DNA of 62,326 nt from Nemertoderma westbladi. Lineage: Eukaryota > Animalia > Xenacoelomorpha. The stretch is from positions 1 to 62,326 of the forward strand of contig JAUCBJ010007239.1 in NCBI GenBank assembly GCA_032718475.1, written 5' to 3'. The notes below the pieces were generated by a model. The model saw only the letters and a program-made list of their open reading frames with translations, did not search any database and was not told the origin of the DNA. Numbering within the stretch: position 1 is the stretch's first letter; the number at the start of each line of letters is the position of its first letter. This document shows, piece by piece, positions 2,130 to 59,258 of this stretch. The position numbers and the translations under genes are program-made.

Positions 2130-2200
2130 TAAAACGAACGATTATATACAATTATATAAATATAAATATTAAAATAATATATTTAAACCAACAAACTCAC

Positions 2201-21105: not shown

Positions 21106-21588
21106 ACCCTTACAAAACTCATTTTACGGAATCCAAGATCACCCCTATTACATCCATTTAGCCCAATATTACATGGTGAAACCCGAAGATCCTACACACA
21201 GCCTAAGGTTTCTTCCTTTGATAAATCCCCTTGATCTTGTTGAACTGGAGCAGCTTCAAAAACATCTCGACCAATTAGTTAAATCAAACTCATTCAGAAA
21301 ACCATATAATGTTGCCAGAATAGAGAATGTTGTGCTCCCTCAGTACAACCTCGATGGATTCATCAAAACTCGATTAGTCCATTGGAACTTGGACGTGTTG
21401 TTCGAGGAAGAACGTATACAATGTTATGGAGAGGAAAATACACATACTACACATTATTTAAAAATAGAGTGATCTACCTAACGCCAGCGACAGACCAAGA
21501 TTATGCCGTCCTGTGGATATGACTTTAGAAAGAGCCACAGCTGAATGGAATGAAACTCGAAACATTATTGAAATGTATGGTGTTATGA
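21095..21588 (+). pseudogene. Unidentified decayed ORF, 5' part (continues at 26786-27270 after the LINE)
   Basis: 125-aa ORF, then a second frame ..MTLERATAEWNETRNIIEMYGVM that reads straight through the LINE insertion site into IMKAVFLLENSGLLD. Confidence 0.5.
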
Positions 21589-22082: not shown

Positions 22083-24887
22083 TTAGGTTACCCCAAGCAC
22101 CACTAACCACCTCTTACGCAACACCGAGAGAGGAGAAACGTTAGCAATTACACGAATAATGATGTTTTGTGAAATATCAATACGTCGTAGCAAAGAAAAA
22201 ATATTACTTCTCTGCATAGCCCTAAAAGTATTGATCCTATTATTTACAAAAATTTCACTAGCGTCCTCAGTTCTAGAATATTTGAAAAGTGATCTAAAAG
22301 CAGTATTATAAGCTACCTTAACCTTGCGCAAATTCTCAACACGAAATATAGACCAGAGTGAGCAACAGTACATGCTGTAACAGTAGGATCTAAATAAGGT
22401 TAACTTTACATCATATGAACAATTCGAAAATAATCTAACAATCTGGTTACCCCTACAATACATTGAGCACATTATACGTTTCATATCTGATTCATCGCTT
22501 AGATCGCAAGTAATTGTATGCCCAAGGTAATTAACCTCCTTAACACAATGTAATGGTTTACCACAAAGATATACATCACCAGCACGGTTAATTCTATAAG
22601 GAAGAAAATACATACAGTGAGATTTAAGCGGGTTAAATTCAATATCAAATTCCACCCCAAACTTTTCACAAATAGCAATTAACTTACGTAGACCAAAAAT
22701 GCTAGGGGATAATAAACATAGATCGTCTGCATAAAAAAGATTATTAATAATAATGGAACCTACTTTGCAACCAACAAAAGAGTCGTTCAAGCGTCTACTT
22801 AATTCCGTCATATAGATATTAAAGAGAACAGGGCTGAGAAGGCTCCCCTGTCGTACACCATTAGAAACAGTGAAGACATCCGAGGAAGCACTTCCCCATC
22901 TTACAAAAATATATTGATTTGAATACCAAAAGGAAAGAATACGCACAATTGAAACCGGTACATTAATATCCAATAGCTGTCTAAACAATTTAAAATGATT
23001 TACCCGGTCAAACGCCTTAGACGCATCTAAGAACGCCGAATACACTGGAGATTCTCGACTGACATATAAATGAACAGTTTCTTTTAACGCAAAAATACAC
23101 ATTTCAGTGCCTAGAGCTGACTGAAAACCGAATTGATTATCAGTACACTTAGCACGACCCTTGATAAAAGGCAGTATACATGCCTCAAATACTTTCGATA
23201 TCGCGTTAGCAACAGCTATAGGTCTGTAATTAGTGAAATCAGAATAACTAGCATTCTTATTTTTAATTACAGGTAAAATACTAGAAGTAATAAAGCTATT
23301 AGGCAAATAACCATGAACCAAAAAAGCATTAAATAATAGGGCTAACATTACTGACAAACGCGGCCCTGCAAATATTAAACTTTCTGGAAAAATCCCATCC
23401 GGACCTGCAGCCTTTCCTTTAGAAAGACTCTGAACCGCCTCATAAACCATAGACGGAGTAATATGCACATAATTAGAACCATCCCAATTATCAAACACAC
23501 CTTTCACGTAGACAAAATCATCATCCTTACACGGCACTGAGTTAAAGATATGCTCATAACTACTCTTAAAAAGATCAGCTATTTCCGGTTCGGAATTAGC
23601 ACCACCAACATTATTGGAACGTTTAATTTTCGCGTTATTTCGCGATCGCACTGAACTCCAAAAATCGTTTTTACTATCAATAAAAGACTGAGCTAATTTG
23701 TCGTCTCTGATAGACTGCACAGACCGACGACAATTACGCAGGGCCAATTTGAACTGCGCGGTTGCACGCCGTTTCACGTCCCAAATAAAACCGAATCTCG
23801 GTCGCCCCTGCTCACACCATATATGAAAGGCCTCCTGCGCCGCTTCATATTTTTCTTTAACAAACTCGTTCCAACCGGGAACAGCATTAGTAGTCCTACT
23901 GTTATAACTACACTTAGAAGTAGGGATATACTTATCTACACTAGATTTAATAGCACCAATAACTTGGTCGTAAGATATTTTAAGACTGCTTAAATGTTCA
24001 GGGTTACTACAGTGAACATCACAGCAAGTAACAGAGTCCGGTAAATTAAACATAGATAAGCACTCATCTAAACCATTATGGTAAGCATCGATTACAGTAC
24101 TATCTACCTTCTTCCAATCGGAACGTGGAGAAGCTGGTTCTACGTGTACGTGCCTGGGAGATGAATCTACAGAGACATCGCACACAAAGGATAACGGGAG
24201 ATGATCATCAACCGAAACATCTGTAACTACTTTAAGACCAGAAATCTTGCCATGGAAACTTGGCGTAGAAACTACATGATCTAACCAAGACACCGTACCG
24301 TAAATATGACTTATATACATAAACGTTTCCCTTGGTAATAAAATAACATCTGATACTAGCAACGAAGAAAAATTACAGAAATTCTGTAATTCGGTTCCAA
24401 AATTCCGACCGGGCATAGCATTAAAATCGCCAATAACTGCACAAAGATTACCGGGGTGGTCATTAATACTTGTAAAGCACACTGATAATAATTCCAAAAA
24501 TAATTCGAAATTATCCGAATTATCGCACGGAAAATAGGCATTAATTAAAAACATCGTGGATCCATCCGAGCACTCTACAGTAACACCTAATAAACGATTG
24601 TTATTCAAATTAATTATTTTAACTTTATTATTCAACGACTTATGCCAGAGGATGGCTAGCCCCCCGTGAGGCCTGCCAACACGAGGACCATCACTTAGAT
24701 CTACACTTGCCACCCCACTACCAAAATAGTCGCCTTCAATGCTGTTTAAAGAATGCAGGTCCTGCTTGTATTGCCACGTTTCCTGGAGAAACAGTATATC
24801 GTGATTTTTACATAGCGACCTAACATGGTCCATATGGGAGGTAAGACCTCCACAGTTATACGAACATATCCGCAAATTATGACTCAT
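22083..24887 (-). CDS. LINE ORF2: AP endonuclease + reverse transcriptase (934 aa)
   Basis: APE motifs SYNCGG, LQETW, GDFNA, WLDH, DDHLP. RT motifs YRPIA, QFGF, LDASKAFDRV, GVRQGSLLSP, FYADD, YLGH. Confidence 0.95.
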   Translation of the reverse strand: MSHNLRICSYNCGGLTSHMDHVRSLCKNHDILFLQETWQYKQDLHSLNSIEGDYFGSGVASVDLSDGPRVGRPHGGLAILWHKSLNNKVKIINLNNNRLLGVTVECSDGSTMFLINAYFPCDNSDNFELFLELLSVCFTSINDHPGNLCAVIGDFNAMPGRNFGTELQNFCNFSSLLVSDVILLPRETFMYISHIYGTVSWLDHVVSTPSFHGKISGLKVVTDVSVDDHLPLSFVCDVSVDSSPRHVHVEPASPRSDWKKVDSTVIDAYHNGLDECLSMFNLPDSVTCCDVHCSNPEHLSSLKISYDQVIGAIKSSVDKYIPTSKCSYNSRTTNAVPGWNEFVKEKYEAAQEAFHIWCEQGRPRFGFIWDVKRRATAQFKLALRNCRRSVQSIRDDKLAQSFIDSKNDFWSSVRSRNNAKIKRSNNVGGANSEPEIADLFKSSYEHIFNSVPCKDDDFVYVKGVFDNWDGSNYVHITPSMVYEAVQSLSKGKAAGPDGIFPESLIFAGPRLSVMLALLFNAFLVHGYLPNSFITSSILPVIKNKNASYSDFTNYRPIAVANAISKVFEACILPFIKGRAKCTDNQFGFQSALGTEMCIFALKETVHLYVSRESPVYSAFLDASKAFDRVNHFKLFRQLLDINVPVSIVRILSFWYSNQYIFVRWGSASSDVFTVSNGVRQGSLLSPVLFNIYMTELSRRLNDSFVGCKVGSIIINNLFYADDLCLLSPSIFGLRKLIAICEKFGVEFDIEFNPLKSHCMYFLPYRINRAGDVYLCGKPLHCVKEVNYLGHTITCDLSDESDMKRIMCSMYCRGNQIVRLFSNCSYDVKLTLFRSYCYSMYCCSLWSIFRVENLRKVKVAYNTAFRSLFKYSRTEDASEIFVNNRINTFRAMQRSNIFSLLRRIDISQNIIIRVIANVSPLSVLRKRWLVVLGVT

Positions 24888-25038
24888 TATCTATACTAAA
24901 AGATTACTTTTTAACTAATTAAAACTGTTACTAAAAATAACAATGGGTACTGAAGCAAATTGGGTTACTTAGAAATTAAGTTGGATTATTTGATTAGAGT
25001 CTAGTATAATAGTCTCTAACGCTACTCCCATCCAGCAC

Positions 25039-26688
25039 TTAAACCCGAGACCCATCCATAGGGACCCAGTGCCTCTTCACAAGAATCCCCTGCGGCCAGG
25101 ATCTAGTGTCAATAAGTTTTTCATACACATCCTTACTCCGAGTTATTATAATAAACGAGCTATAGGTCTGGTGTAGTTGTTTCGGGTTAGCAACCACCGA
25201 ACCAACAGACAAATTATGCTGCGAGTTAATAAACTCCTCGACAACCGCTGCTGTTGTTTCGGGGGTGAAACGAGAAACAAAGATACGCAACTCTTGCGGC
25301 TCACGGGCAGCCGCAACTAGGCCAGGAAACTCAAAAGTACCGGTTCCAATCGGCGCCGGACGTTTCTTCCGCCTGTCGGCAGTGAAACCACCGGGGAACG
25401 CAGCACGGGTACCAGAAGCAGGAGGAACAGGACCGTCCGATGTAGCAGGTTGCTTGGAGGGACCTCCATTGACACCGCCGCCACCCCGGCGTCGTCCTCG
25501 TAGACCACGTAGTTTAGCAGATCGAGGACGTCGACTTGCTTCTTCACTGTCGGAAGCAGCCTGATCAGAAGTCAAATCAACCAGCGGATCAAACCGATTG
25601 TGAACTGCTGGCTGGGGACTGGGGAAGTAGGTAGGCATGGGACGCCTTGGGGGGTGGCCAGGATGGCCACGAACTGCACTCGCATATGAGTTGAGCTGGA
25701 TTTGATTAGAGACCCGAGCCCGATGGAAGTTGCCACTGGATACAGCTGTGGCTCCCTCCAGTCCGGTGTTCGCACCATGTTCGGAATAATCGGGATCCAG
25801 ATCTGCCCCGGAGGCGGAGACAAGGTCTGTAACTTCCTCCTCTTCATTACGGGTATAGTCGACGGGGCGAGGAAACTCCCTCCGGCACAGATTATTCGAA
25901 GAAACTCGATCAGAGACCCTCACGGAAACCAGATTAGCGACAATAGGACTGACCAATTCCGGCAGATCATCCTTCTTACAGTACGATTCCTTGAGCAGGA
26001 TGTCATGGCGTTCAATTGAGAGTTTCATTTCTAGGAGGGAATCACGAAGATCTCTAAAGTCCTCGCCGCGTACAGCCAAGTTCACAGACTGTTTATCCGT
26101 CGGCGGTAAACGCGCCGGATTTAGCGCGTAGAAGCATGGACAATTCTCTGAGTCTACAAAACAACTCTCGTTGAATAAATTATACATGTCAAGGACATGA
26201 TTTCTCTTCGCTTTATTGCCGATACGACCAACCCAGGAAGGCAACGGGCGATCAGGAACAGCACACTTAACTGCCTCAGCGAAGAGCAATTTCTTCGCTA
26301 AAACAATATCATCCAGCGAGTAAAAGTTCGCGATCGCAGCAGACAACTGAATTTTGTCTAGCGTGGAAATTCCAAACTGCAGAAAACAAAGCAGTTCCGA
26401 GTGAACGAGCCGACAGTCTGCTCCATGATCATCTAGGATCGGTGCCTCCTCCACCAGCCCCCGATCCTCAGTTTGAGAGATGGTAATCGAATCACTATCA
26501 TTACCGTCCTCCTCCACCGTAAACACGTCAGTCACCCTTGGAGTCATACTGTCACAACGCTTCAAGCAACAGCTTTCACATAAAAGCCTATTATCCAACA
26601 ATTTAAAGATCACAGATGGTTTACCGTTTACAGCACTAATTGGCAGCTCCACGGTCAGGCAATCTGCACACTTCTTTAGTGATGTCAT
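25039..26688 (-). CDS. LINE ORF1 (549 aa)
   Basis: N-terminal CxxC..CxxC, ELLCFL..FYS..I..AK..LF and NPARLPP blocks, coiled coil, and an RRM-like C-terminus IFVSRF..WPQGILVKR. Lies upstream of ORF2 on the same strand. Confidence 0.85.
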   Translation of the reverse strand: MTSLKKCADCLTVELPISAVNGKPSVIFKLLDNRLLCESCCLKRCDSMTPRVTDVFTVEEDGNDSDSITISQTEDRGLVEEAPILDDHGADCRLVHSELLCFLQFGISTLDKIQLSAAIANFYSLDDIVLAKKLLFAEAVKCAVPDRPLPSWVGRIGNKAKRNHVLDMYNLFNESCFVDSENCPCFYALNPARLPPTDKQSVNLAVRGEDFRDLRDSLLEMKLSIERHDILLKESYCKKDDLPELVSPIVANLVSVRVSDRVSSNNLCRREFPRPVDYTRNEEEEVTDLVSASGADLDPDYSEHGANTGLEGATAVSSGNFHRARVSNQIQLNSYASAVRGHPGHPPRRPMPTYFPSPQPAVHNRFDPLVDLTSDQAASDSEEASRRPRSAKLRGLRGRRRGGGGVNGGPSKQPATSDGPVPPASGTRAAFPGGFTADRRKKRPAPIGTGTFEFPGLVAAAREPQELRIFVSRFTPETTAAVVEEFINSQHNLSVGSVVANPKQLHQTYSSFIIITRSKDVYEKLIDTRSWPQGILVKRHWVPMDGSRV

Positions 26689-26785
26689 TCCGGTCAGTGT
26701 ACAGCAGTACAGCAGTATAACGCTAGGATTTAGCTAGGCTTCAGCTGTACAAAGTTAGCACCTTATAATGAAGGCAGTGTTATGA

Positions 26786-31883: not shown

Positions 31884-33789
31884 CACGAAGTGGGGCCTTC
31901 GCGCAGCACGTGACTTAAATTTAATTTAAGTACTAATTCGAAAGTATTACTGTATTAGCAAATTTTAAGCAGATTTCGCCTAATCACTTTTTACCTCTTT
32001 CATTTCTATTCAGACATTTCTGACTCTAGCGGTATAGTGAGAACTGAAGATGGATTAGGGTCTCCAGCCCCACAAAGACACAGCCTATGGATGAATAGTA
32101 CATACGTACATCGGCCAAGTTTCATCTTGAATAACGGATAACGAAATGAGAGACGGATCTCACTTTCAGAAATTTCGTCGTATAGCGGCAGACCGATTAA
32201 ATCTCCCCCCCCCCCCCCCCCCCCCACAAAGACGCAGCATGTGGTCCAGAATATATAGCAAGATTCAGCTTAAACTGATTAAAATCAATGAGACGGGAGA
32301 ATCTATTCACTTTCAGGCATAAAGTAGTCCTATAGCGGGTGACTGTTGAACTGATTTTCAACAAAACAAATTTTCAACTTGGCAGCTTTAAATTCGACAA
32401 AGTTATAAGCATGTCAATATCATAACGACGACAACGATTTCACTTTCAGACATTTGGCCCTCTAGCGGCAGACTGGAGAACTGCAGATGGATTCGCCTCC
32501 TTTGAAAGTCACAGCTAATGGTCTAATACATATCTGCCAGGTTTCAGCTTAAACGGATTAAAAGCAAAGAAATGGGAGGGCATTTAATGTTTAGACATGT
32601 GGCCCTCTAGCGGGAGACCATTGCACTGATGGTGTCTGAAAGTCTCTCAAAAATCTCAACTTTAGCTCATATTGATACCTACAAATTTTCAACTTGGCAG
32701 CTTTAAATCCGACAAAGTTATTAGCATGTCAAAATCGTAACGACGACAACGATTTCACTTTCAGACCTTTGGCCCTCTAGCGGCAGACTGGAGAACTGAA
32801 GATGGATTCGCCTCCTTTGAAAGTCACAGCTAATGGTCTAATACATATCTGCCAAGTTTCAGCTTAAACGGATTAAAAGCAAAGAAATGGGAGGGCATTT
32901 AATGTTTAGACATGTGGCCCTCTAGCGGGAGACCATTGCACTGATGGTGTCTGAAAGTCTCTCAAAAATCTCAACTTTTGCTCATATTGATACCTACAAA
33001 TTTTCAACTTGGCAGCTTTAAATCCGACAAAGTTATTAGCATGTCAAAATCGTAACGACGACAACGATTTCACTTTCAGACCTTTGGCCCTCTAGCGGCA
33101 GACTGGAGAACTGCAGATGGATTCGCGGGGTTCGCCTCCTTTGAAAGTCACAGCTAATGGTCTAATACATATCTGCCAAGTTTCAGCTTAAACGGATTAA
33201 AAGCAAAGAAATGGGAGGGCATTTAATGTTTAGACATGTGGCCCTCTAGCGGGAGACCATTGCACTGATGGTGTCTGAAAGTCTCTCAAAAATCTCAACT
33301 TTAGCTCATAGTGATACCTACAAATTTTCAACTTGGCAGCTTTAAATCCGACAAAGTTATTAGCATGTCAAAATCGTAACGACGACAACGATTTCACTTT
33401 CAGACCTTTGGCCCTCTAGCGGCAGACTGGAGAACTGCAGATGGATTCGCCTCCTTTGAAAGTCACAGCTAATGGTCTAATACATATCTGCCAAGTTTCA
33501 GCTTAAACGGATTAAAAGCAAAGAAATGGGAGGGCATTTAATGTTTAGACATGTGGCCCTCTAGCGGGAGACCATTGCACTGATGGTGTCTGAAAGTCTC
33601 TCAAAAATCTCAACTTTTGCTCATATTGATACCTACAAATTTTCAACTTGGCAGCTTTAAATCCGACAAAGTTATTAGCATGTCAAAATCGTAACGACGA
33701 CAACGACGACGACGACGACAACGACGACGACGACGACGACAACTATTTGCATAAATTGACCCACCCCCTAACAGTGTCAATTCGCTAAT
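31884..33789. mobile_element. Helentron-type non-autonomous element (HINE/DINE-1/Pearl-like) with an internal 315-bp tandem array and (GAC)n microsatellite
   Basis: ttttcaacttggcag recurs at 32371, 32686, 33001, 33325 and 33640; (gac/aac)n at about 33693-33743. The termini match the inverted copy at 60318-60836. Confidence 0.7.
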
Positions 33790-33827
33790 AGTCTATTAGG
33801 CTAGGGCAGCAGTTGTTATTTAGTTAC

Positions 33828-34365
33828 TGTGACGGGATCATCCGGAGATGAACCCGATTTATCCTGTTTTAGTTCACGCGTCCCCGCCGTGTGAAAGAGT
33901 GTAAGTTGAGGTTACTGTTGTTCGTTATATTGTGATCTTGAGACGTGATATAGATATAGATATAGATTGATGTTATACACTGACGTTCACAGGTTGACGG
34001 GATGACGGTAACTAAAATCCCGGTACTTCCCTAATTGTAACTTACTGTACCACCAGTAACACTGAGATAACTGAGGTAATATGATTACTGCTTACTGGTT
34101 ATATCGCACGGTGGCCTTATTGCTACTCAATCGGTGCCAGCCCCCCTCTGATTGGTTGCTACCCTTGTTGGCGCCCTTTGAGGTGTTCCCGTTCACCCCA
34201 GCTATTCTCTCCCTTGTCAGGATACTAACCCCTGACCCTTATTGTGTGCTTCTCCTTCCCATTCTGTTGGGGAGACACGAGTTGGTTTGGGACCTAATCT
34301 CGTGTCCCCCAATATTGCTTATTGGCTTAACTTTGTGGAGTATTGGCGGGATTGATTCGCTAACA
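33828..34365 (-). mobile_element. Possible solo LTR
   Basis: 538 bp with TGT..ACA termini, CCAATCAG and TATAA on the minus strand, and internal hairpins. No TSD or PBS is seen. Confidence 0.4.
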
Positions 34366-37298
34366 GTCCGTTTTGGGACGAACATTTCCTTCTGTAAGTC
34401 AGTCCGTTTTGGGACGAACATTTCCTTCTGTAAGTCAGTCCGTTTTGGGACGAACATTTCCTTCTGTAAGTCAGTCCGTTTTGGACGAACATTTCCTTCT
34501 GTAAGTCAGTCCGTTTTGGGACGAACATTTCCTTCTGTAAGTCAGTCCGTTTTGGGACGAACATTTCCTTCTGTAAGTCAGTCCGTTTTGGGACGAACAT
34601 TTCCTTCTGTAAGTCAGTCCGTTTTGGGACGAACATTTCCTTCTGTAAGTCAGTCCGTTTTGGGACGAACATTTCCTTCTGTAAGTCAGTCCGTTTTGGG
34701 ACGATCATTTCCTTCTGTAAGTCAGTCCGTTTTGGGACGAACATTTCCTTCTGTAAGTCAGTCCGTTTTGGGACGAACATTTCCTTCTGTAAGTCAGTCC
34801 GTTTTTGGGACGAACATTTCCTTCTGTAAGTCAGTCCGTTTTGGGACGAACATTTCCTTCTGTAAGTCAGTCCGTTTTGGGACGAACATTTCCTTCTGTA
34901 AGTCAGTCCGTTTTTGGGACGAACATTTCCTTCTGTAAGTCAGTCCGTTTTGGGACGAACATTTCCTTCTGTAAGTCAGTCCGTTTTGGGACGAACATTT
35001 CCTTCTGTAAGTCAGTCCGTTTTGGGACGAACATTTCCTTCTGTAAGTCAGTCCGTTTTGGGACGAACATTTCCTTCTGTAAGTCAGTCCGTTTTGGGAC
35101 GAACATTTCCTTCTGTAAATCAGCCCGTTTTGGGACGAACATTTCCTTCTGTAAGTCAGTCCGTTTTGGGACGAACATTTCCTTCTGTAAGTCAGTCCGT
35201 TTTGGGACGAACATTTCCTTCTGTAAGTCAGTCCCGTTTTGGGGCGAACATTTCCTTCTGTAAGTCAGTCCGTTTTTGGACGAACATTTCCTTCTGTAAG
35301 TCAGTCCGTTTTGGGACGAACATTTCCTTCTGTAAGTCAGTCCAGTCCGTTTTGGGACGAACATTTCCTTCTGTAAGTCAGTCCGTTTTGGGACGAACAT
35401 TTCCTTATTTATGTAAGTCAGTCCGTTGTGGGACGAACATTTCCTTCTGTAAGTCAGTCCGTTTTGGGACGAACATTTCCTTCTGTAAGTCAGTCCGTTT
35501 TGGGACGAACATTTCCTTCTGTAAGTCAGTCCGTTTTGGGACGAACATTTCCTTCTGTAAGTCAGTCCGTTTTGGGACGAACATTTCCTTCTGTAAGTCA
35601 GTCCGTTTTGGGACGAACATTTCCTTCTGTAAGTCAGTCCGTTTTGGGACGAACATTTCCTTCTGTAAGTCAGTCCGTTTTGGACGAACATTTCCTTCTG
35701 TAAGTCAGTCCGTTTTGGGACGAACATTTCCTTCTGTAAGTCAGTCCGTTTTGGGACGAACATTTCCTTCTGTAAGTCAGTCCGTTTTGGGACGAACATT
35801 TCCTTCTGTAAGTCAGTCCGTTTTGGGACGAACATTTCCTTCTGTAAGTCAGTCCGTTTTGGGACGAACATTTCCTTCTGTAAGTCAGTCCGTTTTGGGA
35901 CGAACATTTCCTTCTGTAAGTCAGTCCGTTTTGGGACGAACATTTCCTTCTGTAAGTCAGTCCGTTTTGGGACGAACATTTCCTTCTGTAAGTCAGTCCG
36001 TTTTGGGACGAACATTTCCTTCTGTAAGTCAGTCCGTTTTTGGGACGAACATTTCCTTCTGTAAGTCAGTCCGTTTTGGGACGAACATTTCCTTCTGTAA
36101 GTCAGTCCGTTTTGGGACGAACATTTCCTTCTGTAAGTCAGTCCGTTTTTGGGACGAACATTTCCTTCTGTAAGTCAGTCCGTTTTGGGACGAACATTTC
36201 CTTCTGTAAGTCAGTCCGTTTTGGGACGAACATTTCCTTCTGTAAGTCAGTCCGTTTTGGGACGAACATTTCCTTCTGTAAGTCAGTCCGTTTTGGGACG
36301 AACATTTCCTTCTGTAAGTCAGTCCGTTTTGGGACGAACATTTCCTTCTGTAAGTCAGTCCGTTTTGGGACGAACATTTCCTTCTGTAAGTCAGTCCGTT
36401 TTTGGGACGAACATTTCCTTCTGTAAGTCAGTCCGTTTTGGGACGAACATTTCCTTCTGTAAGTCAGTCCGTTTTGGGACGAACATTTCCTTCTGTAAGT
36501 CAGTCCGTTTTTGGGACGAACATTTCCTTCTGTAAGTCAGTCCGTTTTGGGACGAACATTTCTTTCTGTAAGTCAGTCCGTTTTTGGGACGAACATTTCC
36601 TTCTGTAAGTCAGTCCGTTTTGGGACGAACATTTCCTTCTGTAAGTCAGTCCGTTTTTGGGACGAACATTTCCTTCTGTAAGTCAGTCCGTTTTGTGACG
36701 AGCATTTCCTTCTGTAAGTCAGTCCGTTTTGGGACGAACATTTCCTTCTGTAAGTCAGTCCGTTTTGGGAGGAACATTTCCTTCTGTAAGCCAGTCCCGT
36801 TTTGGGACGAACATTTCCTTCTGTCAGTCCGTTTTGGGACGAACATTTCCTTCTGTAAGTCAGTCCGTTTTGGGACGAACATTTCCTTCTGTAAGTCAGT
36901 CCGTTTTGGGACGAACATTTCCTTCTGTAAGTCAGTCCGTTTTGGGACGAACATTTCCTTCTGCAAGTCAGTCCGTTTTGGGACGAACTTTTCCTTCTGT
37001 AAGTCAGTCCGTTTTGGGACGAACATTTCCTTCTGTCAGTCCGTTTTGGGACGAACATTTCCTTCTGTAAGTCAGTCCGTTTTGGGACGAACATTTCCTT
37101 CTGTAAGTCAGTCCGTTTTGGGACGAACATTTCCTTCTGTAAGTCAGTCCGTTTTGGGACGAACATTTCCTTCTGTAAGTCAGTCCGTTTTGGGTCGAAC
37201 ATTTCCTTCTGTAAGTCAGTCCGTTTTGGGTCGAACATTTCCTTCTGTAAGTCAGTCCGTTTTGTGTCGAACATTTCCTTCTGTAAGACAGTCCGTTT
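34364..37298 (+). repeat. 36-bp minisatellite, about 80 copies, made of an exon 3' end plus a 5' splice site
   Basis: Unit AGT CCG TTT TGG GAC GAA CAT TTC CTT CT|gtaagtc encodes SPFWDEHFL(L) followed by a GTAAGT donor. No spacers. Confidence 0.97.
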
Positions 37299-37767
37299 GT
37301 AATACATACCACACGAAAGTTTTTGGTTAATGAGTTCCGATTTGTTTGTGGGTATGTGTCAAAAACATTAAGTTACTTTATATTATCTATATTTTCCTTG
37401 GCGATTCTTTATTTACCTGTACATGTTGCCTTAAGTACTTTGGCGTTTCTTTATTTACGTCCATGTTACTTTATATTTAAATATAGACGATTCTCTATTT
37501 ACCTACTCGTTACTTTATTTCACAACATGTTTATTAATTCCAAACCCACTACTTTATTTACCTAGATGTTTCTATATTTAATTACATGTTTCTTATTATA
37601 CCCACACGTACATTATTTACCTACCTCGCCTCGGCCTTTCTTTTTTTCTTTTTTAATCACATTCACGTTACTTTTTTATACTTACATCCAACTCCTTTCT
37701 TTATCCAACCGCGTTTCTCTTTTCGCCCAACCTTACTTTATTATCCCACTTTATTTACCTCCGTCAG

Positions 37768-37963
37768 AGACCTCAACCGAAGATCCAAGTTCCTGAGTTT
37801 TACCGTGTTGGACCGGGACCGTCTGGGTACCGAGGTGGACTTTATGGGTCACGCCATCGTCTCTGTAGACGACCTCCGTAGGAACCCGTGCAGTCGCCAG
37901 ATTCTCCCGCTAGAGGGCCGTCCTCGGAAGAGAGACAATGTGTCTGGTTCTATAACCTTGGAG
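37768..37963 (+). CDS. C2CD2L: C2CD2/C2CD2L (TMEM24)-family exon, C-terminal half of the C2 domain
   Basis: Pyrimidine tract + cag acceptor; DLNRRSKFLSFTVLDRD..DFMGHAIVSVDDLRRNPCSRQILPLEGR..VSGSITLE; donor gttggc. Phase 2 in, phase 0 out. Confidence 0.85.
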
Positions 37964-38602
37964 GTTGGCCTTGGTTGATTTATTTTATTATTAATTTTGT
38001 TTAATTGGTATAGTACCTACCGGCAGGGACAGGATACGATACGAGAATACGATACCAATACGAATGCAATTTTGAGAAAATACGATACGATACGAAAAAA
38101 GTTTCGTATTTTTTTCGTATCGTATTTTATCCAAGAATTGATAAAATATATGTATTGTATCTTGTATTACACTTAGAAAATCATATAAATCTCTATTTAT
38201 ATATAATAGGCAAATATTTATTAATTCAAGGTTCCAGTATCATTGCTACAGCAATTAATAGTGTGTCAACTGCGACTACAACATCCATGAGGACGTAATG
38301 CAACACGGCCCAATAGTAGGCGTTACCATATTACCATGCCACTTTATGAATACTGTACTGATGTACCTACCTAGGCCTACATACTGCCGTTAGTAGCTAG
38401 AGTGTTTAATTAATCATTGTGGCCGTGATGGTTCATGGTTAATATACACTACCCTTTTATTGTAGCGAGTGGTTAAAGACTTCCAAGTACTGTAGGGTTG
38501 AGCACAGTGGCAGCATATGATGGTATTGACAGATGGGAGGCCATGATGGGGTAAATTGCGGACATACAAGGTATCAGGTAGTATTTCCAGGTCTATCTTT
38601 TA

Positions 38603-38678
38603 CCTGAGCCGCTAGCTGAATGGTTAGAGCGTCAGACTTCCAACTCGGAGGTCACCAGTTCGATCCCACCTGGACGTC
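38603..38678 (+). mobile_element. tRNA-derived SINE head or tRNA pseudogene (TCC anticodon-like loop)
   Basis: A box tagctgaatggttagagc and B box agttcgatccc; the acceptor stem does not pair. Confidence 0.55.
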
Positions 38679-39383
38679 ATTGCCGACTTTGCAAAGCTGT
38701 GCCCAACAAAAAGTTACAATGTACCAATATGGAATTCAAAATTTATAACTACAATTTCTCATAACAATACCTTGTAGGCGCTATTAGTTATCCTAAAAAC
38801 TTTATTTAAACTGTAATTATATTATATTTCAGTTGTCTTTTTATAATTATTCTACAGTTAATTACAATGTGATTAATTATCATCCTTTCTTACTAATTTT
38901 AATGACATAATAAAACTATAAGCTGCAACCTAATTTATACACCAATTCTGTGAAAAAAATGTAAAGAAATAAGTGGTGTGATCCTTGCACTGAAAAAACA
39001 AAGTACCGTTTTTACATAAAAAAAAACGGCGATTCTCGAAAACGAACGCCAATTTTTTTTTCACCAAATTGAACGCCGTTTATTTCGACAAATTGCGTTT
39101 ATTTACCAGAAGAAAAAGTTGCGTTTGTATTTTCAAAAGCAACCGCCGATTTATTGCATACTCGAAATATGCGTTTATTTGCGACTATAAACGCAGTTTA
39201 TCTTGGAAAAAATTGCCGCTTATTTAACAAAGAATCGCAGTTATAATTGAAATAAATGGCGTTCAATCATGATTATAATTTGCGTTTTTTTTCGAGAACT
39301 GACGACGCCTGCAATGCAGCTTGCTGACGTATGATAGAGTATAATTAGATTAACAAGAACTAGAATTAGATAGAACAAGATTT

Positions 39384-40677
39384 TGTGGGAGACGGAGTGG
39401 GAAGTACAGGAGGATCTGTGGAGGATGTGGAAGACGGAGTGGGAAGTACAGGAGGATCGGTGGACGGTGTGGAAGACGGAGTGGGAAGTACAGGAGGATC
39501 TGTGGAGGATGTGGAAGACGGAGTGGGAAGTACAGGAGGATCGGTGGACGGTGTGGAAGACGGAGTGGGAAGTACAGGAGGATCTGTGGAGGATGTGGAA
39601 GACGGAGTGGGAAGTACAGGAGGATCTGTGGAGGATGTGGAAAACGGAGTGGGAAGTACAGGAGGATCGGTGGACGGTGTGGAAGACGGAGTGGGAAGTA
39701 CAGGAGGATCTGTGGGGGGTGTGGAAGACGGAGTGGGAAGTACAGGAGGATCGGTGGACGGTGTGGGAGACGGAGTGGGAAGTACAGGAGGATCGGTGGA
39801 CGGTGTGGAAGACGGAGTGGGAAGTACAGGAGGATCGGAGGACGGCGTGGAAGACGGAGTGGGAAGTACAGGTGGAGGGGGTGGGAGACGGAGTGGGAAG
39901 TACAGGAGGATCGGTGGACGGAGTGGGAAGTACAGGAGGATCGGTGGGCGGTGTGGAAGACGGAGTGGGAAGTACAGGAGGATCGGTGGACGGTGTGGAA
40001 GACTGAGTGGGAAGTACAGGAGGATCGGTGGACGGTGTGGAAGACGGAGTGGGAAGTACAGGAGGATCTGTGGAGGGTGTGGAAGACGGAGTGGGAAGTA
40101 CAGGAGGATCTGTGGAGGGTGTGGGAGACGGAGTGGGAAGTACAGGAGGATCGGTGGACGGTGTGGAAGACGGAGTGGGAAGTACAGGAGGATCGGTGGA
40201 CGGTGTGGAAGACGGGAGTGGGAAGTACAGGAGGATCTGTGGAGGATGTGGGAGGCAGAGTGGGAAGTACAGGAGGATCGGTGGACGGTGTGGAAGACGG
40301 AGTGGGAAGTACAGGAGGATCTGTGGAGGGTGTGAGAGACGGAGTGGGAAGTACATGGGGATCTGTGGAGGGTGTGGGAGACGGAGTGGGAAGTACAGGA
40401 GGATCGGTGGACGGTGTGGAAGACGGTGTTGGAAGTACAGGAGGATCTGTGGAGGGTGTGGGAGACGGAGTGGGAAGTACAGGGGGATCTGTGGAGGATG
40501 TGGAAGACGGAGTGGGAAGTACAGGAGGATCGGTGGACGGTGTGGAAGACGGTGTTGGAAGTACAGGAGGATCTGTGGAGGGTGTGGGAGGTGGAGTGGA
40601 AAGTACAGGAGGATCGGTGGACGGTGTGGGAGAAGGAGTGGGAGGTATGGGCGGATCTGTGGAGGGTGTAGGAGAAT
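39384..40677. repeat. 42-bp purine-rich minisatellite, about 30 copies
   Basis: Unit gtggaagacggagtgggaagtacaggaggatc(g/t)gtgga(cg/ggg/gga)t with alternating variants and indels. Confidence 0.95.
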
Positions 40678-40849
40678 GAGAATTAGAATACGATTAACCT
40701 ACTATAACCATTTAATTCATATCGAAGTATGAACCGCATTATATATAACAAGTGAAATTGATAAAACCGAAGAATGTTAAAAACAAACAGAACACACACA
40801 ATATACAAGTATTCTGCACTGAAATTAAAACTCGGAACAATAATGATTT

Positions 40850-41460
40850 ATCAATATAAATTTCTCCATCAGAACCGCTATCATCGAGCAAAGTTTCAGA
40901 GATTTTTAATATTAAAACTGCTGGGTTGGATTTAGCGATTAAAATTCTAATTTCAGGAAGTTTTGGAAGCCAAGATCGTGCGTTTAAATGCAAAAAATGC
41001 AGACCTTTTTACGGTTTTCGACGTTTTTACGGTTTTTTACGATCTTCGGTTTCGATTCTAAAATCGTATTCGTAAAACTTGGCACAAGATTGCTTCTGGC
41101 TTCTGGTGGAGAATAAATTACTGATTTTCCTACCGGCACGGTAACATTTCAAATATACGATTGTGTCAGAACTCTCGCATTTGACGTTCTTACTCCGATA
41201 GTTTGTTCCCCGTTGAAAGGCGGGACAGTTGATCGTCGCCGTTGGTGCCCGCATCGGCCGCATCCGGCTCGGTCCCGGGTTGGTCTCAATATCCCCAGCG
41301 AGAGAGAGAGAAGACAGAGTTTAGCGATTAGGCCTCGAGTTCTTGGAGAAGTAGAAGAGCCCCATGATCTTCTTCCAGTCTTCCCCGTCGAGAACAGTAA
41401 AGGTTAAATTCGTTCGTCGCCCACATCTCCGTCGACTCGGCGCAGCAGCTCGAAAGCAGT
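40850..41460 (-). mobile_element. 5' fragment of a CR1/L2-type LINE ORF: 2A-like peptide, degenerate PHD-like finger, start of APE
   Basis: SLAGDIETNPGP (41270-41305), then CPAF..VKCESSD..YLKC, then HLNARSWLPKLPEIR..PAVL..ISETLLD..DGEIYI (APE N-terminus). Confidence 0.8.
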
Positions 41461-43158
41461 GGTGACAGGGAATCGGGTGGATTACACAGTTACCCCGCGG
41501 TTCAGATGGTTCTCCACAACAAAACAGCCCAGAACGATAAATACTGTGGAGATTGGAAGCGGGGACATTCTTATGTAGTCTAACTCAAGATATAAAAACT
41601 GTATAGGCCTACCGGTAGTACAGTTTGACTGCTGTAGTACCTGTATTTCTTGTGTTATTGTCGGCAGGTCTTCTGTAGGAAAATGTAGCTACCGGTAAAA
41701 AAGCAAAAAGTGACTGACAATCTTAATCCTCTCGGGTTAGCCGAGTCCAGTGCTGCTAGAAGGCACACGAACGTGTAGCATCTTTCACAGTAGGTCTACT
41801 GGTAACTCCTTATTTTAGCTGTAGTTTAGTCTCCACCGACAATCTTGTCAAATTGTATAAACTACTGTATAACATTCTACGGTAAGTGTAGTATGGGAGC
41901 TGAATCCGATTCTATGAGTGGTCACGATTCGCGATAGTATTAGTATGGGAGCTGACTTTTCTCCCGAACCCATGTGCTAAGACTGTACACAGTGTCATAC
42001 TTACCTCACCCACATTCACAAATTATGCAGATGAAAATGCAGATGAAATGAAATGAAAATGATGAACTATTATAATATTGGGTGGCCACAGACAGTCTAT
42101 ATTATATGCGATGACAACCCACATGACTTACCAATATCTCTATTTATTTTCTTATTTTTAAATTATTCTTATTATTAATTGTGAGTGGCCTATATACATT
42201 TGCCGAATTTTGCGTGACTCTTTACGTTTACTTGTTATTTTCTACAATATTTCAGGGAAATATGGCACTTCCACCACCGGATATTGGTTTGGAAAGCTGT
42301 TCAAACAATCTGTAAACCCCTGTGATCACACATCGGAAGATGCTGACGTCATCATAAAGATGTCGTTTCAGTCTACCCCATAGGGTTAATGTTAAATGAA
42401 TATTAAACAATTAGTACCTAAAAGTAAAAATTGTACTGTAAAAACTGTGTTCCTAAATTTTGTTTATTGTTTTGGTTAGAAAAGCCTGCCATTATGATCT
42501 GCTAACTTTCCTTTAAAAGGTACCTTAAATGGTGAATATCGAAATTTAATATTCGCGAAATTAAGTTAATAATATTTTAAAATAGGCTAAAACGACACCA
42601 AAATTTGTAATATGCAAACCGGTCTCCCATGCCAAAGTTTATTTGTTACTGAGTATTTAGAAAAACGCTGGTTTTTGACTCGGTGAATAAGCCACACTTG
42701 GAATTCTCCATAAACGCCGTTTAAACTTTTGAACGGTATTTATTTTTTGACTAAAAATATAAACGCAAATTATTTGTCAAATATAATCGCCGCTTCTTTG
42801 TCCATAAACGCTATTTAAAATTTTGAACGGTAGTTTGTTTTTTCAGTGTGGTTTAACTGTTAAAAACGATACAAAAATACGAAAAATATTTAGTTGTATT
42901 ATACGATACGAATAAAATACTGCGATACGAAATACGAAAATCCGTTTTCGTATCGTATCGTATCGTGTCCTGTCCGGCATACCGGTATGTTAATTTATTT
43001 TAGATTTTTGTTATTTTAAATTTCTCTCTAAGCCGGTTTAATCAATATATGGTTCAGTTAATATAGTTCCATACTTTCAGTTTCTCTCTTTGAGGTATCA
43101 TACAAACTGCATTAGTTACTTTCGGTTCCACTTTATCCCGCGCAACAACCGGTTCATA

Positions 43159-43533
43159 TTACTTTCAGTTTCTCGTTATCCTGCATAACTCCCGGTACAT
43201 TATTTACTTTCAGTTTCTCGTTATCCTGCATAACTACCGGTACATTATTTACTTTCAGTTTCTCGTTATCCTGCATAACTACCGGTACATTATTTACTTT
43301 CAGTTTCTCGTTATCCTGCAAAACTACCGGTAGATTATTTACTTTCAGTTTCTCGTTATCCTCCATAACTACCGGAAGATTATTTACTTTCAGTTTCTCG
43401 TTATCCTGCATAACTACCGGTACATTATTTACTTTCAGTTTCTCGTTATCCTGCATAACTAACAGTAGATTATTTACTTCAGTTTCTCGTTATCCTTGCA
43501 TAACTACCGGTACATTATTTGCTTTCAGTTTCT
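43159..43533 (+). repeat. 45-bp minisatellite made of a 3' splice site (8 extra copies before the real acceptor)
   Basis: tttactttcag|TTTCTcgttatcctgcataactaccggtacatta. AG ends at 43168, 43213, 43258, 43303, 43348, 43393, 43438 and 43482; the true acceptor ends at 43528. Confidence 0.95.
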
Positions 43534-43766
43534 GTTTATGGAGGCAGCTGCCGAGGACCACACACAGAACAGGCGGGATCGGGGTTACCAAGGCTACGGA
43601 TTGGGTTCCTCGACCCAGACGGCTAGTAAAGTGAAGGTGGTGGAAACCAACCAATCAGTGACCCCTACGGGCACCTTGGTTACCACTGTGCGGACCCAAG
43701 AGGGGGAAGGGGGCGGGGTAACAGCAGTCGAGTTACAGCAGGGGGAGGCGTCCCCCACATCTGTAG
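43529..43766 (+). CDS. C2CD2L: C2CD2/C2CD2L-family exon following the C2 domain
   Basis: FLFMEA..KVKVVETNQSVTPTGTLVTTVRT resembles the family block EF(S/L)(Y/F)ME..KIEKDRTVMPxGTVVTTVT (recalled, not searched). Phase 0 in; donor G|gtgggt, phase 1. Confidence 0.85.
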
Positions 43767-45912
43767 GTGGGTAACATTCGTTATTTAGTAATTTTTTTTA
43801 TAAAGAATACATTATTTTAAAACACTCAATGGTTGGCCAACAAGCTTCCACTCAGTGGTCGACTGCTATATAAGAGGATCGTGAGTGCAGTGACGTGCCT
43901 GTAGGGTGCAGCTGGGTTTTGTCAATAATTTACGACTAAACATTATCGAATGTAAATTTATCTTATTAACTATTATGGAACAGCATCCATTTTCATCAAG
44001 TTTTATCCAGTTTTTGGAATTCCTATTTTTCAGTATTTTTTTAGCAGTACAAACTAAATATGATAATTAATTCAAATTTTCTCAATAATTTTTATAATTT
44101 ACCGTAAAACATCCTTCCGCTAACTAACTATTTCTACATCCTCATCGCCGCCATTTATAGCGTATTCAGGCTCCAGTGTTCTAGAAACCGCTCTCGATAT
44201 TCTGGAACACAGAAGAGAAAGTGTCTCATCTTCCGGGGCCCCGGTTATAAAAACCCAACTGGTTATAACCGGCGTAAATAAGGTAATAAACTACCTCTTT
44301 TTATCCCGGCTAATAAAGACACTCTTTGTTTCCCGGTTAAGCTTCAAGATTAAAGGTTCCCTTTCTATCCCGTTTTTCTAAAGCGTACCTTTACCGCTCC
44401 GGAAACAAAGCATTGAATTGTGTAACCTTAATAAAGTTAGGTTTTATCTCCTCAGTAATAAAGTCAAGCTACTTTCCTCCAGTAATAAAGTAACTTACTT
44501 TATCCCCCAGACACGGTAATACAATTTACCGTTGTATGTCAGAAAAGTACAGCTTAAAATCATGTGAGATAAGAGATAATGTGTCCCTTTTAGTCTCGGG
44601 CAATAAAGTATGTCTTTATGTCCCGGCTATTTAAGTGTCTATGGTTATAAAGTATGGCTTTATGTACCGGTTTATGAATTTTCACTTTGTTGCAACTCTA
44701 TGGGCATGTCGTGTTATTTCCGTGACCATGATTGCTACGCTGTTATGTAAATTCAGATTTTCTACCGAATTTCGGACTTGGAAATGTTTGATCTGGTTTT
44801 TTGTTTATTTATCTTCAAAAAAATTGTAACAGAAAATTAAAATCCAACTCTCTATTATGAAAATTATTAATATTATTAAAGATTTATATTGAAGTTTTCG
44901 CATTCCGAAATATATCACACGAAATATACACCATGTATACTGGAATATAGTCTCGTTAATAGTGTATAAATTGTTTCTTAATGAGATTGTATGAAATTTG
45001 AAACAGATTGAATTTCACCTCCATCCTCTGAGGAGACAGAATTGTGATTTTCTCTTTCAATCTTTATTTTAGCTACAATCGTTTCAACAACTAAACCAAT
45101 CGACTATTATAATAATAATAATAGTTGTTTGTAGCTATATTAATAGATACATTAAGAAAATGTTCTAGAATATGGATGTATTTATTAAATTGAATAAAAA
45201 GCTCATCATATCTCAGCTGTTTTTCAACGAAATTCAGATTGTGTTACATATTTGGAATCCTTGCGCGGCCAGCTTTCCATTGGAACCAACATATCACTAT
45301 ATTGTTCAAGAATGGCGTTGGTGTAGTGGTAGTGTAACTGGTGAAAAGTGGACATTTGAGGGGGGGGGGGGGGGGGGGTGTCCAAGTTTCTGAATTACCA
45401 CACTATATTCCAGGTCATGGTGTAGTTGCGTAGCAATCATAAACAATCTGGGTTCTGGTTACTCTTACGCCATCTCGTGTTTCTGCATGGTATTTGTTTT
45501 CTTCATATCATTTGATCTTTCGATTGGGGCATATTATTCATAACTCTAAATGGTATAGTTTATATTGGTGTTATTGGATAACTTTATTTCTCTCCCCAAT
45601 CTGTATCCTAACTATCTAACTCTATATGCTTTATTATCCTGACTCTATAAAACTCTGTGAGTGTTGGGTAGGCCAGTGCGGATAGAACCAGGAATATGAG
45701 TCGCTAAGTTGGTCAGAATGTAGCGGTTAGAAATAGCTCTTACAGTTAGTTAGTTTTCTAACGGACGACAGTTTTAATAAGAAATTAACAGCTGGAGTCT
45801 TAAATAGCTAACCTCAGGGAAGCAGCACCTAAAACTCCCGCCAATCATGGTTCCGTACCGACTATGGACTCGTGTTCGAATATGTACAACACCACGTGTC
45901 GTTTATTTTCAG

Positions 45913-51373: not shown

Positions 51374-51641
51374 GCGGCTATAGACACCTCGGTACAGACG
51401 GTTGAATCGACCCTCCCTCACCGATCCGGCTCCGGCTCCGGCTCCGGCTCCGGCCGCAGTGCTAGTCGGGGTCGCGTCCGGGATCCGTCACCCGGACGAA
51501 TCCGTCGGTTCTTCAACCTCCGCCGCGAGCGCAGCGCCGACTCGCGGCCGCTAGGGGAATCGGCTAGTCCGCGGATTCTCGTTAAACTGCAGCCCAAAGA
51601 CGCCAGTCTACGTAGGAGTCCCAACAGTTTGTCCCCAACGG
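51374..51641 (+). CDS. Exon of the C2CD2/C2CD2L-family gene (Ser/Gly/Arg-rich, basic)
   Basis: cacag|GCG..ACG G|gttagt, a 268-nt open GC-rich frame AAIDTSVQ..RIRRFFNLRRERSADSR..SLSPT. Phase 0 in, phase 1 out. Confidence 0.75.
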
Positions 51642-51714
51642 GTTAGTTGGTCCCAACAGTTTGTCTCCAATGGGTCAGTTAGTCTCAACAGTTTGTCCCC
51701 AACGGGTAGTTAGT
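51620..51714 (+). repeat. 32-bp triplication of an exon end plus donor
   Basis: cccaacagtttgtccccaacgg|gttagttggt in three diverging copies. Confidence 0.85.
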
Positions 51715-58605: not shown

Positions 58606-59205
58606 TACGGAGCCCCTAAAGGGACATTTTGAAAAAAAAATGTATCTAGTGCGCACTAGATATTATATTAAGCGCCCATGTGAAGAATAGCAGGATTTCA
58701 CTTTTCGGTCGACTTTTTATTGGAATTTTATATATGAAGATTTTTAATTTTTTAATTTATCTTTATTAAGTGTTTTATAGCGCTTATTTCTGTCTTATAA
58801 CCTGTACATATACTAATTCGTTTATTGTTTTGGTTAGATTCAGCCCTTCCGTAACCTATGTTTTTGGTAAAAACCTGGTATTCTTCACATGGGGGTAACT
58901 GCAAAGTGAAATATAACGGCAGAAAGTCTGGTATTCTTCACATGGGGGGTAACTGCAAAGTGAAATATAACGGCAGAAAGTCTGGTATTCTTCACATGGG
59001 GGTAACTGCAAAGTGAAATATAACGGCAGAAAGTCTGGTATTCTTCACATGGGGGGTAACTGCAAAGTGAAATATAACGGCAGAAAGTCTGGTATACTTC
59101 ACATTGGCCTTATTAAGTGCGCTCTAGGTAAATATTAAGAGCGCTCTTGATAATTACCTAGAGCGCTATCTATTTTTTTTCCAAATGTCCCTTAAGGACT
59201 CCGTA
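58606..59205. mobile_element. IS3EU-like non-autonomous element
   Basis: TACGGAG(c/t)CC.TAA.GGGACATTT TIRs and a 6-bp TSD agttcc at 58600-58605 and 59206-59211. Confidence 0.75.
58674..59108. mobile_element. Nested MITE with four 53-54-bp terminal repeats
   Basis: ccatgtgaagaata / tattcttcacatgg TIR; unit ctggtattcttcacatgggggtaactgcaaagtgaaatataacggcagaaagt x4. Confidence 0.75.
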
Positions 59206-59258
59206 AGTTCCAGGTCCAGCTATAACTTTGCGGCTTTTTCACCTATACGCTATACAAC

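What the first reader, a model, noticed from the sequence alone, without database searches (positions are those of the whole stretch)
34364..37298. A satellite made of about 80 copies of an exon end and its 5' splice site
The 36-bp unit reads SPFWDEHFL-CT|GTAAGT. Joining CT to the phase-2 exon at 37768 gives PFWDEHFLLDLNRRSK, the expected C2-domain continuation in invertebrate C2CD2/TMEM24 proteins (family knowledge). The unit is bounded by the 10-bp microhomology cagtccgttt. The intron therefore begins with about 80 near-identical strong U1 sites, and use of any downstream donor includes an in-frame TAA (CTG TAA). Two further junctions of the same gene are amplified, so this looks like a systematic splice-site-seeded satellite process. 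It could act as a copy-number rheostat for splicing/NMD, a U1 sponge, or a trace of splicing-coupled DNA repair (inference). I cannot confirm it is undescribed.
Basis: partly seen in the sequence, partly recalled or inferred. Interest (0 to 1): 0.88.

Follow-up and report, generated by a model that had tools for sequence, protein, structure and literature searches.

The report
Splice-donor 'mirage' minisatellite in C2CD2 gene
The last 30 bases of an exon of an animal C2CD2/TMEM24 gene (a predicted lipid-transfer protein) and its splice signal are repeated 81 times head-to-tail, a repeat type already known from lancelet and human genes; a contig that likely comes from RNA is spliced normally with a single copy, so the spare signals are likely ignored, and in this window the rest of that exon is missing and a probable retrotransposon end sits in its place.

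Summary
The array is real: 81 copies of a 36-bp unit plus a 10-nt partial copy; 53 match the consensus exactly and 75 end in GTAAGT. Three public DNA runs (two samples) hold it, joined to the true exon body. A 3,310-nt contig that behaves as mRNA has one unit spliced GT..AG to 37768, then to 43529, so the upstream-most donor is used. The gene is a C2CD2/TMEM24 homologue. This is a known kind: lancelet 'mirages' and the human F7, CBS, 6-16 and ABCA7 repeats. The scan's own unchecked notes report the same thing on other pieces of this genome (12 distinct notes). I found no evidence for a rheostat or U1 sponge, though contigs cannot show rare isoforms. Why such arrays cluster at splice junctions stays open.

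The parts
34364..37298 (+). 36-bp minisatellite: 30 nt of exon end (SPFWDEHFL-CT) plus GTAAGT; 81 units and a 10-nt partial unit
   Evidence: the unit is present in DNA runs X1-X3
34364..34393 (+). Exon-derived part of the first unit in the window; identical to the 30 nt found once in the spliced contig
   Evidence: X4 record of 3,310 nt matches 34364-34393 with 0 differences and stops before GT
37289..37298 (+). 10-nt partial unit or microhomology, followed by unique intron sequence
33828..34365 (.). 538-bp high-copy dispersed repeat with TG..CA ends (LTR-like) that abuts the array where the exon body should be; its terminal CA coincides with the first two bases of the unit
   Evidence: depth in the hundreds to >100,000 in X1-X3; contigs of X2 and X3 begin exactly at 33828; ends shown, no second copy in the window, flanks differ
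33790..33827 (.). 38-bp flank shared with multi-copy contigs that continue into other sequence; joins a truncated element upstream
   Evidence: X1 record 1 and X3 record 17; self-BLAST
37299..37767 (+). Remainder of the intron, with decayed copies of the pyrimidine tract that precedes its own acceptor (about 37407-37622)
   Evidence: 5 copies of the 12-mer at 1 mismatch or fewer, against a mean of 0.03 and a maximum of 2 in 2,000 shuffles
37768..37963 (+). Exon, second half of the C2 domain (196 nt, phase 2 to phase 0)
   Evidence: 52% identity to P0002; Pfam C2 E 0.0023, below the curated cut-off; covered by the spliced contig with 0 differences
43110..43528 (+). 45-bp array, about 9.5 copies, of the intron's last bases, the AG and about 5-10 exon-like bases (acceptor-type mirage)
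   Evidence: the spliced contig continues at the last, true acceptor
43529..43766 (+). Next exon (FLFME...); 5' end supported by the spliced contig, 3' end predicted
44170..44282 (+). Predicted exon
   Evidence: weak similarity to orthologues; AG/GT ends and compatible phase
51374..51641 (+). Predicted exon
   Evidence: weak profile hit, iE 0.44; AG/GT ends; no RNA check
51617..51714 (+). 32-bp x3 repeat spanning the predicted donor at 51641 (donor-type mirage, predicted)

Best explanation
The array is a 'mirage' minisatellite, 81 head-to-tail copies of a C2CD2/TMEM24 exon end and its splice donor, which likely began as one short tandem duplication between two 10-bp direct repeats, likely grew by ordinary slippage and unequal exchange, and likely persists as a tolerated passenger because the spliceosome uses the copy next to the exon body. 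Shown: the unit is the true exon end plus donor; DNA contigs of two samples join the exon body to a unit; a transcript-like contig has one unit and a normal GT..AG joint. Inferred: (1) the seed duplication used the 10-nt homology. (2) Expansion is ongoing, since rough depth ratios differ about 5- to 20-fold between samples and a 40-bp variant unit is shared by the window and three runs. (3) The first donor wins by exon definition or 5'-to-3' scanning, as shown for human F7; read-through products would stop at the TAA in the first unit and be removed by NMD, so selection against growth is weak. Separately, the piece in this window lacks the exon body and the gene's 5' half, so it is either misjoined at the LTR-like repeat or a disrupted or duplicated allele.
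For: Spliced joint from a unit's CT to 37768 (GT..AG), continuing at 43529, in one 3,310-nt contig; the same 30 upstream bases precede the unit in all four runs X1-X4. Those bases translate by hand to HRTNTIKST, in register with KHKT..RNT.N before PFWDEHFL in the orthologues. Unit contigs have depth 25,000 against 27.3 and 13.4 for the flanks in X1, and 857-873 against 5.2-17.4 in X3 (rough, not true copy numbers). The TTTA-insertion variant is 1 of 81 units in the window and is present in X1, X2 and X3. Donors are unpaired in the predicted fold, z +0.98, so structure is not predicted to hide them. Precedent: lancelet mirages do not disturb splicing (PMC3087553, PMC3902484), and human F7 uses only the most upstream of 5-9 identical donors (PMC1557585).
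Against: There is only one transcript-like contig, from a third sample whose own array is unknown. Run X4 is listed as 'DNA?' and is taken as RNA from its behaviour. Contigs drop rare variants, so leakage to downstream donors is not excluded; it occurs in human 6-16, CBS and ABCA7. The 10-nt homology may be a truncated last unit. Junction-seeded arrays look more common here than neutral seeding predicts, which this account does not explain. I saw no listed contig bridging the LTR-like repeat and the array (tables cut).
Confidence: 0.72

Rival explanations
1. Copy-number rheostat: longer arrays divert a growing share of transcripts to downstream donors, or cause exon skipping, and the in-frame TAA sends them to NMD, tuning gene output.
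For: Read-through hits TAA at once. Rough depth suggests large length differences between samples. Precedents for leakage: ABCA7 one-unit retention with a premature stop (PMC5954066 passages); 6-16 and CBS use further sites (PMC1557585 introduction).
Against: The only record of X4 laid on 37120-38010 is the normally spliced contig, 1 of 1. In the precedents, leakage is to the first one or two downstream copies, which would not scale with 80-900 copies (inference). NMD substrates would however be invisible in contigs.
Confidence: 0.12
2. Splicing- or transcription-coupled seeding: junction DNA is duplicated preferentially, for example at co-transcriptional R-loops, polymerase pauses or nucleosome edges at exon borders, so junctions are mutational hot spots for the first duplication. 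This is compatible with the best explanation for later growth.
For: 3 of 7 arrays in the gene span contain a junction in their end unit (2 of 6 without the focal one, P 0.005-0.013), plus decayed acceptor-tract copies in the same intron. Unchecked scan notes report the pattern in many genes of this genome.
Against: One of the two extra junctions is predicted and was noticed because of its repeat. Arrays also grow in non-junction DNA here: 29-bp x80 inside a dispersed repeat, 42-bp x31 in mid-intron. A survival filter also gives enrichment near junctions: duplications wholly inside exons are purged, whereas those that spill into the intron leave the mRNA intact (inference). The units hold intron bases, so they are not copies of spliced mRNA.
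Confidence: 0.2
3. The window's copy is not a working allele: an LTR-type insertion, rearrangement or 5'-truncated duplication has cut the array from its exon, or the assembly is misjoined here. My split of this separate question is misjoin about 0.45, real rearranged or duplicated allele about 0.4, intact gene with the 5' half beyond a very long nested block about 0.15.
For: The exon body is absent. An unrelated gene with an intron (Clu family, minus strand) lies at the window's left end. The LTR-like repeat ends exactly at a unit start. In X1 the contig upstream of the array has half the depth of the downstream one, 13.4 against 27.3.
Against: X3 shows the opposite depth ratio (17.4 against 5.2-7.6). 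There is no target-site duplication and no partner LTR in the window. The exon at 37768-37963 differs from the spliced contig at 0 sites, so this is not an old pseudogene.
Confidence: 0.85
4. The array itself is an assembly artefact.
For: Unit variants are often homopolymer length changes (8 units with an extra T, 2 lacking one base), which suggests some consensus error.
Against: Unit-to-unit junction contigs occur at very high depth in X1, X2 and X3, from two studies, and share variant units with the window.
Confidence: 0.02
5. U1 snRNP sponge: the nascent intron titrates U1.
For: 75 GTAAGT sites per transcript in the window's version.
Against: The sites lack the exonic consensus. Tens to hundreds of sites on a few nascent transcripts are small against a U1 pool of order a million per cell in vertebrates (recalled, not measured here).
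Confidence: 0.03

Closest known systems
Lancelet 'mirage' minisatellites (Adh3, globins BflGb6 and BflGb9, troponin C, PGBD5). Seen: 7 passages of PMC3087553 and 9 passages of PMC3902484; the Adh3 and troponin C papers only as cited there; supplements not opened.
   Same: Tandem units spanning an exon-intron boundary, at donors or acceptors, several per gene; unit 10-160 bp; most units keep AG/GT; normal splicing; length unstable; edge units diverge.
   Different: Copy numbers in the passages seen are 2-7; here 81, and roughly 900-fold depth in one run. Here the unit is mostly exon (30 of 36 nt).
Human minisatellites whose first monomer spans an exon-intron boundary: F7 IVS7 (37 bp, 5-9 copies), 6-16 (25 pseudo-sites), CBS intron 13 (15-20 repeats), LAMIN B2, PDGF. 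Seen: abstract, Discussion and 8 passages of PMC1557585; 5 passages of PMC2630376; the primary papers not read.
   Same: Identical donor reiterated into the intron; the upstream-most donor is used.
   Different: Fewer copies; the F7 unit is mostly intron (4 exon bases); 6-16 and CBS leak to two further sites, which I could not test here.
ABCA7 intron 18 VNTR. Seen: 6 passages of PMC5954066.
   Same: Array starts at the donor, each unit carries GT, alleles reach about 9.7 kb, and retention of one unit gives a premature stop.
   Different: Units hold no exon sequence; a length effect on splicing is reported there and untested here.
Recursive splicing sites (recalled, no paper read)
   Same: AG and GT signals repeated inside a long intron.
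   Different: Recursive sites are AG directly followed by GT; here 27 nt separate them, and no intermediate was seen.

Membership tests
Mirage minisatellite | Tandem unit spans an exon-intron boundary of the host gene | tested here: met
   30 exon nt plus GTAAGT; boundary fixed by the spliced contig
Mirage minisatellite | Minisatellite-size unit (10-160 bp in PMC3087553) | tested here: met
   36 bp
Mirage minisatellite | Many but not all units keep the splice signal | tested here: met
   75 of 81 end in GTAAGT
Mirage minisatellite | Regular mRNA is still made | tested here: met
   One 3,310-nt contig with a single unit and a GT..AG joint; rare isoforms not visible; its sample's array unknown
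Mirage minisatellite | Length instability between alleles | tested here: inconclusive
   81 units in the window; depth ratios about 900-1,900 in X1 and 50-170 in X3; contig depth is not a copy number
Mirage minisatellite | Homogeneous interior, divergent edge units | tested here: met
   Units 79-81 diverge progressively at the 3' end; the true 5' edge is not in the window
C2CD2/C2CD2L (TMEM24) | C2 domain whose closest relatives are C2CD2-like proteins | tested here: met
   Best hits 46-52% to proteins named C2CD2-like or C2CD2L-like; 10 of 14 top homologues scanned hit SMP_C2CD2L
C2CD2/C2CD2L (TMEM24) | N-terminal SMP_C2CD2L domain in the same gene | tested here: inconclusive
   No exon for it in the window; the spliced contig has 1,465 nt upstream of the unit that I could not read
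C2CD2/C2CD2L (TMEM24) | C-terminal C1 domain (10 of 14 homologues) | tested here: inconclusive
   Not found in the window; it may lie beyond the right end
LTR (33828-34365) | TG..CA termini and high copy number | tested here: met
LTR (33828-34365) | Target-site duplication or partner LTR | tested here: not met
   Flanks differ; no shared 14-mer elsewhere in the window; no AATAAA or ATTAAA on either strand. Hence only 'LTR-like'.
Recursive splice sites | AG immediately followed by GT | tested here: not met
   27 nt lie between CAG and GTAAGT in the consensus unit

The most novel reading that the evidence does not exclude
This genome has a mutational process that targets splice junctions themselves, coupled to transcription or splicing in the germline, and turns them into satellites of hundreds of copies across many genes. 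The animal would then be a natural, genome-wide test of how a spliceosome picks one donor among hundreds of identical ones, with array length acting as a heritable dial on expression at some loci.
Probability: 0.15. Interest if true: 0.75.

Novelty: new member of a known kind. Interest (0 to 1): 0.27.

Why it matters
As one locus it is an ordinary, large example of a known repeat type. It adds a case where the upstream-most of about 80, and perhaps several hundred, identical donors is used, well beyond the 5-26 copies in the human donor cases cited in PMC1557585, and where each unit is also a potential in-frame 27-nt mini-exon that is not seen in the mRNA contig. That makes first-site selection testable with natural length alleles. 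The open question of real interest is genome-wide: why arrays cluster at junctions. Practically, such arrays mislead gene models and assemblies; this window has lost the gene's 5' half exactly at the array edge.

Tried and rejected
No whole genome is held, so neither the genome-wide enrichment test nor a search for the gene's 5' half on another piece could be run. No RNA holder was listed among the 6 runs; X4 is read as RNA only from its behaviour. I considered the first unit as a 27-nt micro-exon with an acceptor at 34366: rejected for the intact allele, because the exon body joins the unit directly in DNA contigs of X1-X3. I considered the DPYCV-like reading at about 34230 as the missing C2 exon: rejected, because it is in another frame, at the wrong distance, inside the high-copy repeat, and has no Pfam or profile hit. 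I considered the 29-bp x80 array (51886-54210) as one of the 'further junctions': rejected, because its flanks match a dispersed repeat at 58671-58944 and 1-145. The joint reported at 37174 marks only the consensus unit present in the laid stretch, not use of unit 78. X4 as a processed pseudogene in a DNA run is unlikely (no intron or array cover) but not excluded. No listed contig bridges 34363/34364 (724 pieces and 51 loose ends not shown), which proves nothing. Rfam at gathering thresholds gave 0 matches in the window. Folding of five units showed no unusual structure. Scan notes gave nothing near this place, for this sequence, or for the gene name. Six paper searches listed no title on a genome-wide junction-satellite process or on this gene's array; two searches were seen as listings only (20 of 53), and subscription journals are mostly missing.

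Full report
Observation. Tandem Repeats Finder gives a 36-bp period, 81.3 copies and 96% matches at 34364-37298. Splitting the array gives 81 full units and a 10-nt partial one; 53 of 81 equal the consensus, and the commonest variants are homopolymer length changes. 75 of 81 end in GTAAGT, and read-through from the first unit stops at CTG TAA. The last three units diverge progressively. The array is not an assembly invention: contigs made of unit-to-unit junctions occur at very high depth in runs X1, X2 and X3 (two samples, two studies), and a 4-base insertion variant seen once in the window is present in all three.

The gene. The exon at 37768-37963 found 1 relative among 37 candidates, a Saccoglossus C2+C1 protein at 52% identity. 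A search with that protein returned 1,304 hits. Of 14 top hits scanned, 14 have C2, 10 SMP_C2CD2L and 10 C1. Several are named C2CD2-like or C2CD2L-like in hemichordates, lancelet, starfish and a spider; others are unnamed.

The splice. Run X4 is listed as 'DNA?' but covers only exons. Its single record on 37120-38010 is a 3,310-nt contig that matches one consensus unit up to CT, jumps GT..AG to 37768, covers the exon with 0 differences and continues with the bases at 43529. Upstream of the unit it carries 30 bases that translate by hand to HRTNTIKST, in register with the orthologues' KHKT..RNT.N. The same 30 bases precede a unit in genomic contigs of X1, X2 and X3. So in those samples the true exon runs straight into a unit, and the mRNA-like contig uses the donor next to the exon body, with one unit only. 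Contigs drop rare variants, and X4 is a third sample whose array is unknown, so minor leakage is untested.

Those 30 bases have 0 matches in the window. tblastn with 35 homologues hit only 37769-37963 at E 0.05 or better. A profile of 31 homologues over 2,930 six-frame segments of the masked window found profile positions 382-503 clearly and 521-648 weakly, and nothing credible for the SMP domain, the first half of C2 or C1. What abuts the array is a 538-bp TG..CA repeat (33828-34365) with depth from hundreds to over 100,000 in the DNA runs; contigs start exactly at 33828 and other copies diverge within four bases of 34365. It has no target-site duplication and no partner in the window. Further left lie LINE fragments and a Clu-family gene on the minus strand. 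The window therefore holds only the gene's 3' part. A misjoin and a real rearranged or duplicated allele both fit; flank depth ratios point in opposite directions in X1 and X3.

Other junctions. The 45-bp array at 43110-43528 repeats the intron's last bases, the AG and about 5-10 exon-like bases, and the spliced contig uses the last acceptor. A 32-bp x3 repeat spans a predicted donor at 51641. The intron after the focal array holds decayed copies of its own acceptor's pyrimidine tract, 5 against 0.03 expected. Of 7 arrays with period 20 or more and at least 3 copies in the gene span, 3 have a junction in an end unit; without the focal array 2 of 6, P 0.005-0.013 under random seed placement. 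I left out the two-copy 26-bp repeat and the short array at 49870. This is suggestive only, as one junction is predicted. The 29-bp x80 array lies inside a dispersed repeat and the 42-bp array in mid-intron, so large arrays also grow away from junctions.

Mechanism. Most likely a short duplication between the two 10-nt direct repeats seeded the array (inferred; such a match arises at about 2% of random positions, but could be a truncated unit). Slippage and unequal exchange likely expanded it; depth ratios are about 900-1,900 in X1 and 50-170 in X3, rough figures only. The mRNA is unchanged because the first donor is used. The donors are unpaired in the predicted fold, so position, not structure, is the likely reason, as shown for human F7. 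The donors are perfect at +1..+6 but TCT at -3..-1. The TAA applies only to read-through: 62 of 81 units could instead be in-frame, stop-free mini-exons, none seen in the contig.

Comparison. Tandem repeats spanning exon-intron boundaries are termed 'mirages' in lancelets, vary in length and do not disturb splicing (PMC3087553, passages; PMC3902484, passages). Human F7, 6-16, CBS, LAMIN B2 and PDGF carry donor-reiterating minisatellites in which only the first, or the first three, sites are used (PMC1557585, abstract, Discussion and passages). ABCA7 has a donor-containing VNTR with alleles up to about 9.7 kb and a one-unit-retention isoform with a premature stop (PMC5954066, passages). I opened no supplements. 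The term 'mirage' and the PGBD5 paper came to me from the scan's notes; my reading of a tolerated array with first-donor use was recorded before that. Twelve distinct notes report the same pattern on other pieces of this genome; I did not check their loci.

Verdict. Real, correctly identified and of a known kind; new member, interest 0.27. The remaining value lies in scale and in the unexplained clustering at junctions, which needs a genome-wide test.

Noticed in passing
window 37309/37310: Runs X1, X2 and X3 all leave the window's sequence here with loose ends; the two X2 ends are reverse complements over about 26 nt, as for a terminal-inverted-repeat element inserted 11 bp after the array. 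The window lacks it.
   Followed up: partly
window 37916: X1 reads T for G at the first base of a Gly codon of the C2 exon; an allele difference.
   Followed up: partly
window 51886-54210: 29-bp x80 array that has grown inside a dispersed repeat; another copy of that repeat (58671-59104) has amplified a neighbouring 54-bp piece about 4 times.
   Followed up: partly
window 39384-40669: 42-bp x31 strongly G/A-skewed array in mid-intron, flanks unique in the window.
   Followed up: partly
window 32366-33789: 315-bp x4 tandem amplification inside an element with a trinucleotide tail; a one-unit copy lies on the other strand at about 60330-60840; the copy here is cut off at 33789.
   Followed up: partly
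window 2197-4407 (-): Large first coding exon of a Clu (clustered mitochondria) gene, with a 24-bp coding repeat at 3724-3925 and a GT donor near 2200; the gene runs off the left end.
   Followed up: partly
window 47739-49386 (+): DDE_Tnp_1_7 (piggyBac-like) transposase in two overlapping frames, inside an intron of the C2CD2 gene.
   Followed up: partly
window 22083-26733 (-) and 10593-11862 (+): Non-LTR retrotransposons: one with a 935-aa endonuclease-RT frame plus an upstream 564-aa frame, one fragmented RT.
   Followed up: partly
window 18868-21500 (+): Broken frames with three Cys/His knuckles and an LLDSG motif, recalled as BEL/Pao-like gag-protease; no convincing Pfam hit.
   Followed up: partly
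window 59226-60287 (+): Single open frame of 353 aa with a hydrophobic segment and a fibrinogen C-terminal domain.
   Followed up: partly
window 9534-10141: 55-bp x11 array, not near any exon I identified.
   Followed up: no
window 38000-38120 and 42870-42980: Inverted ends rich in GATAC/GTATC repeats flank most of the intron 37964-43528, like a terminal-inverted-repeat element (read).
   Followed up: no
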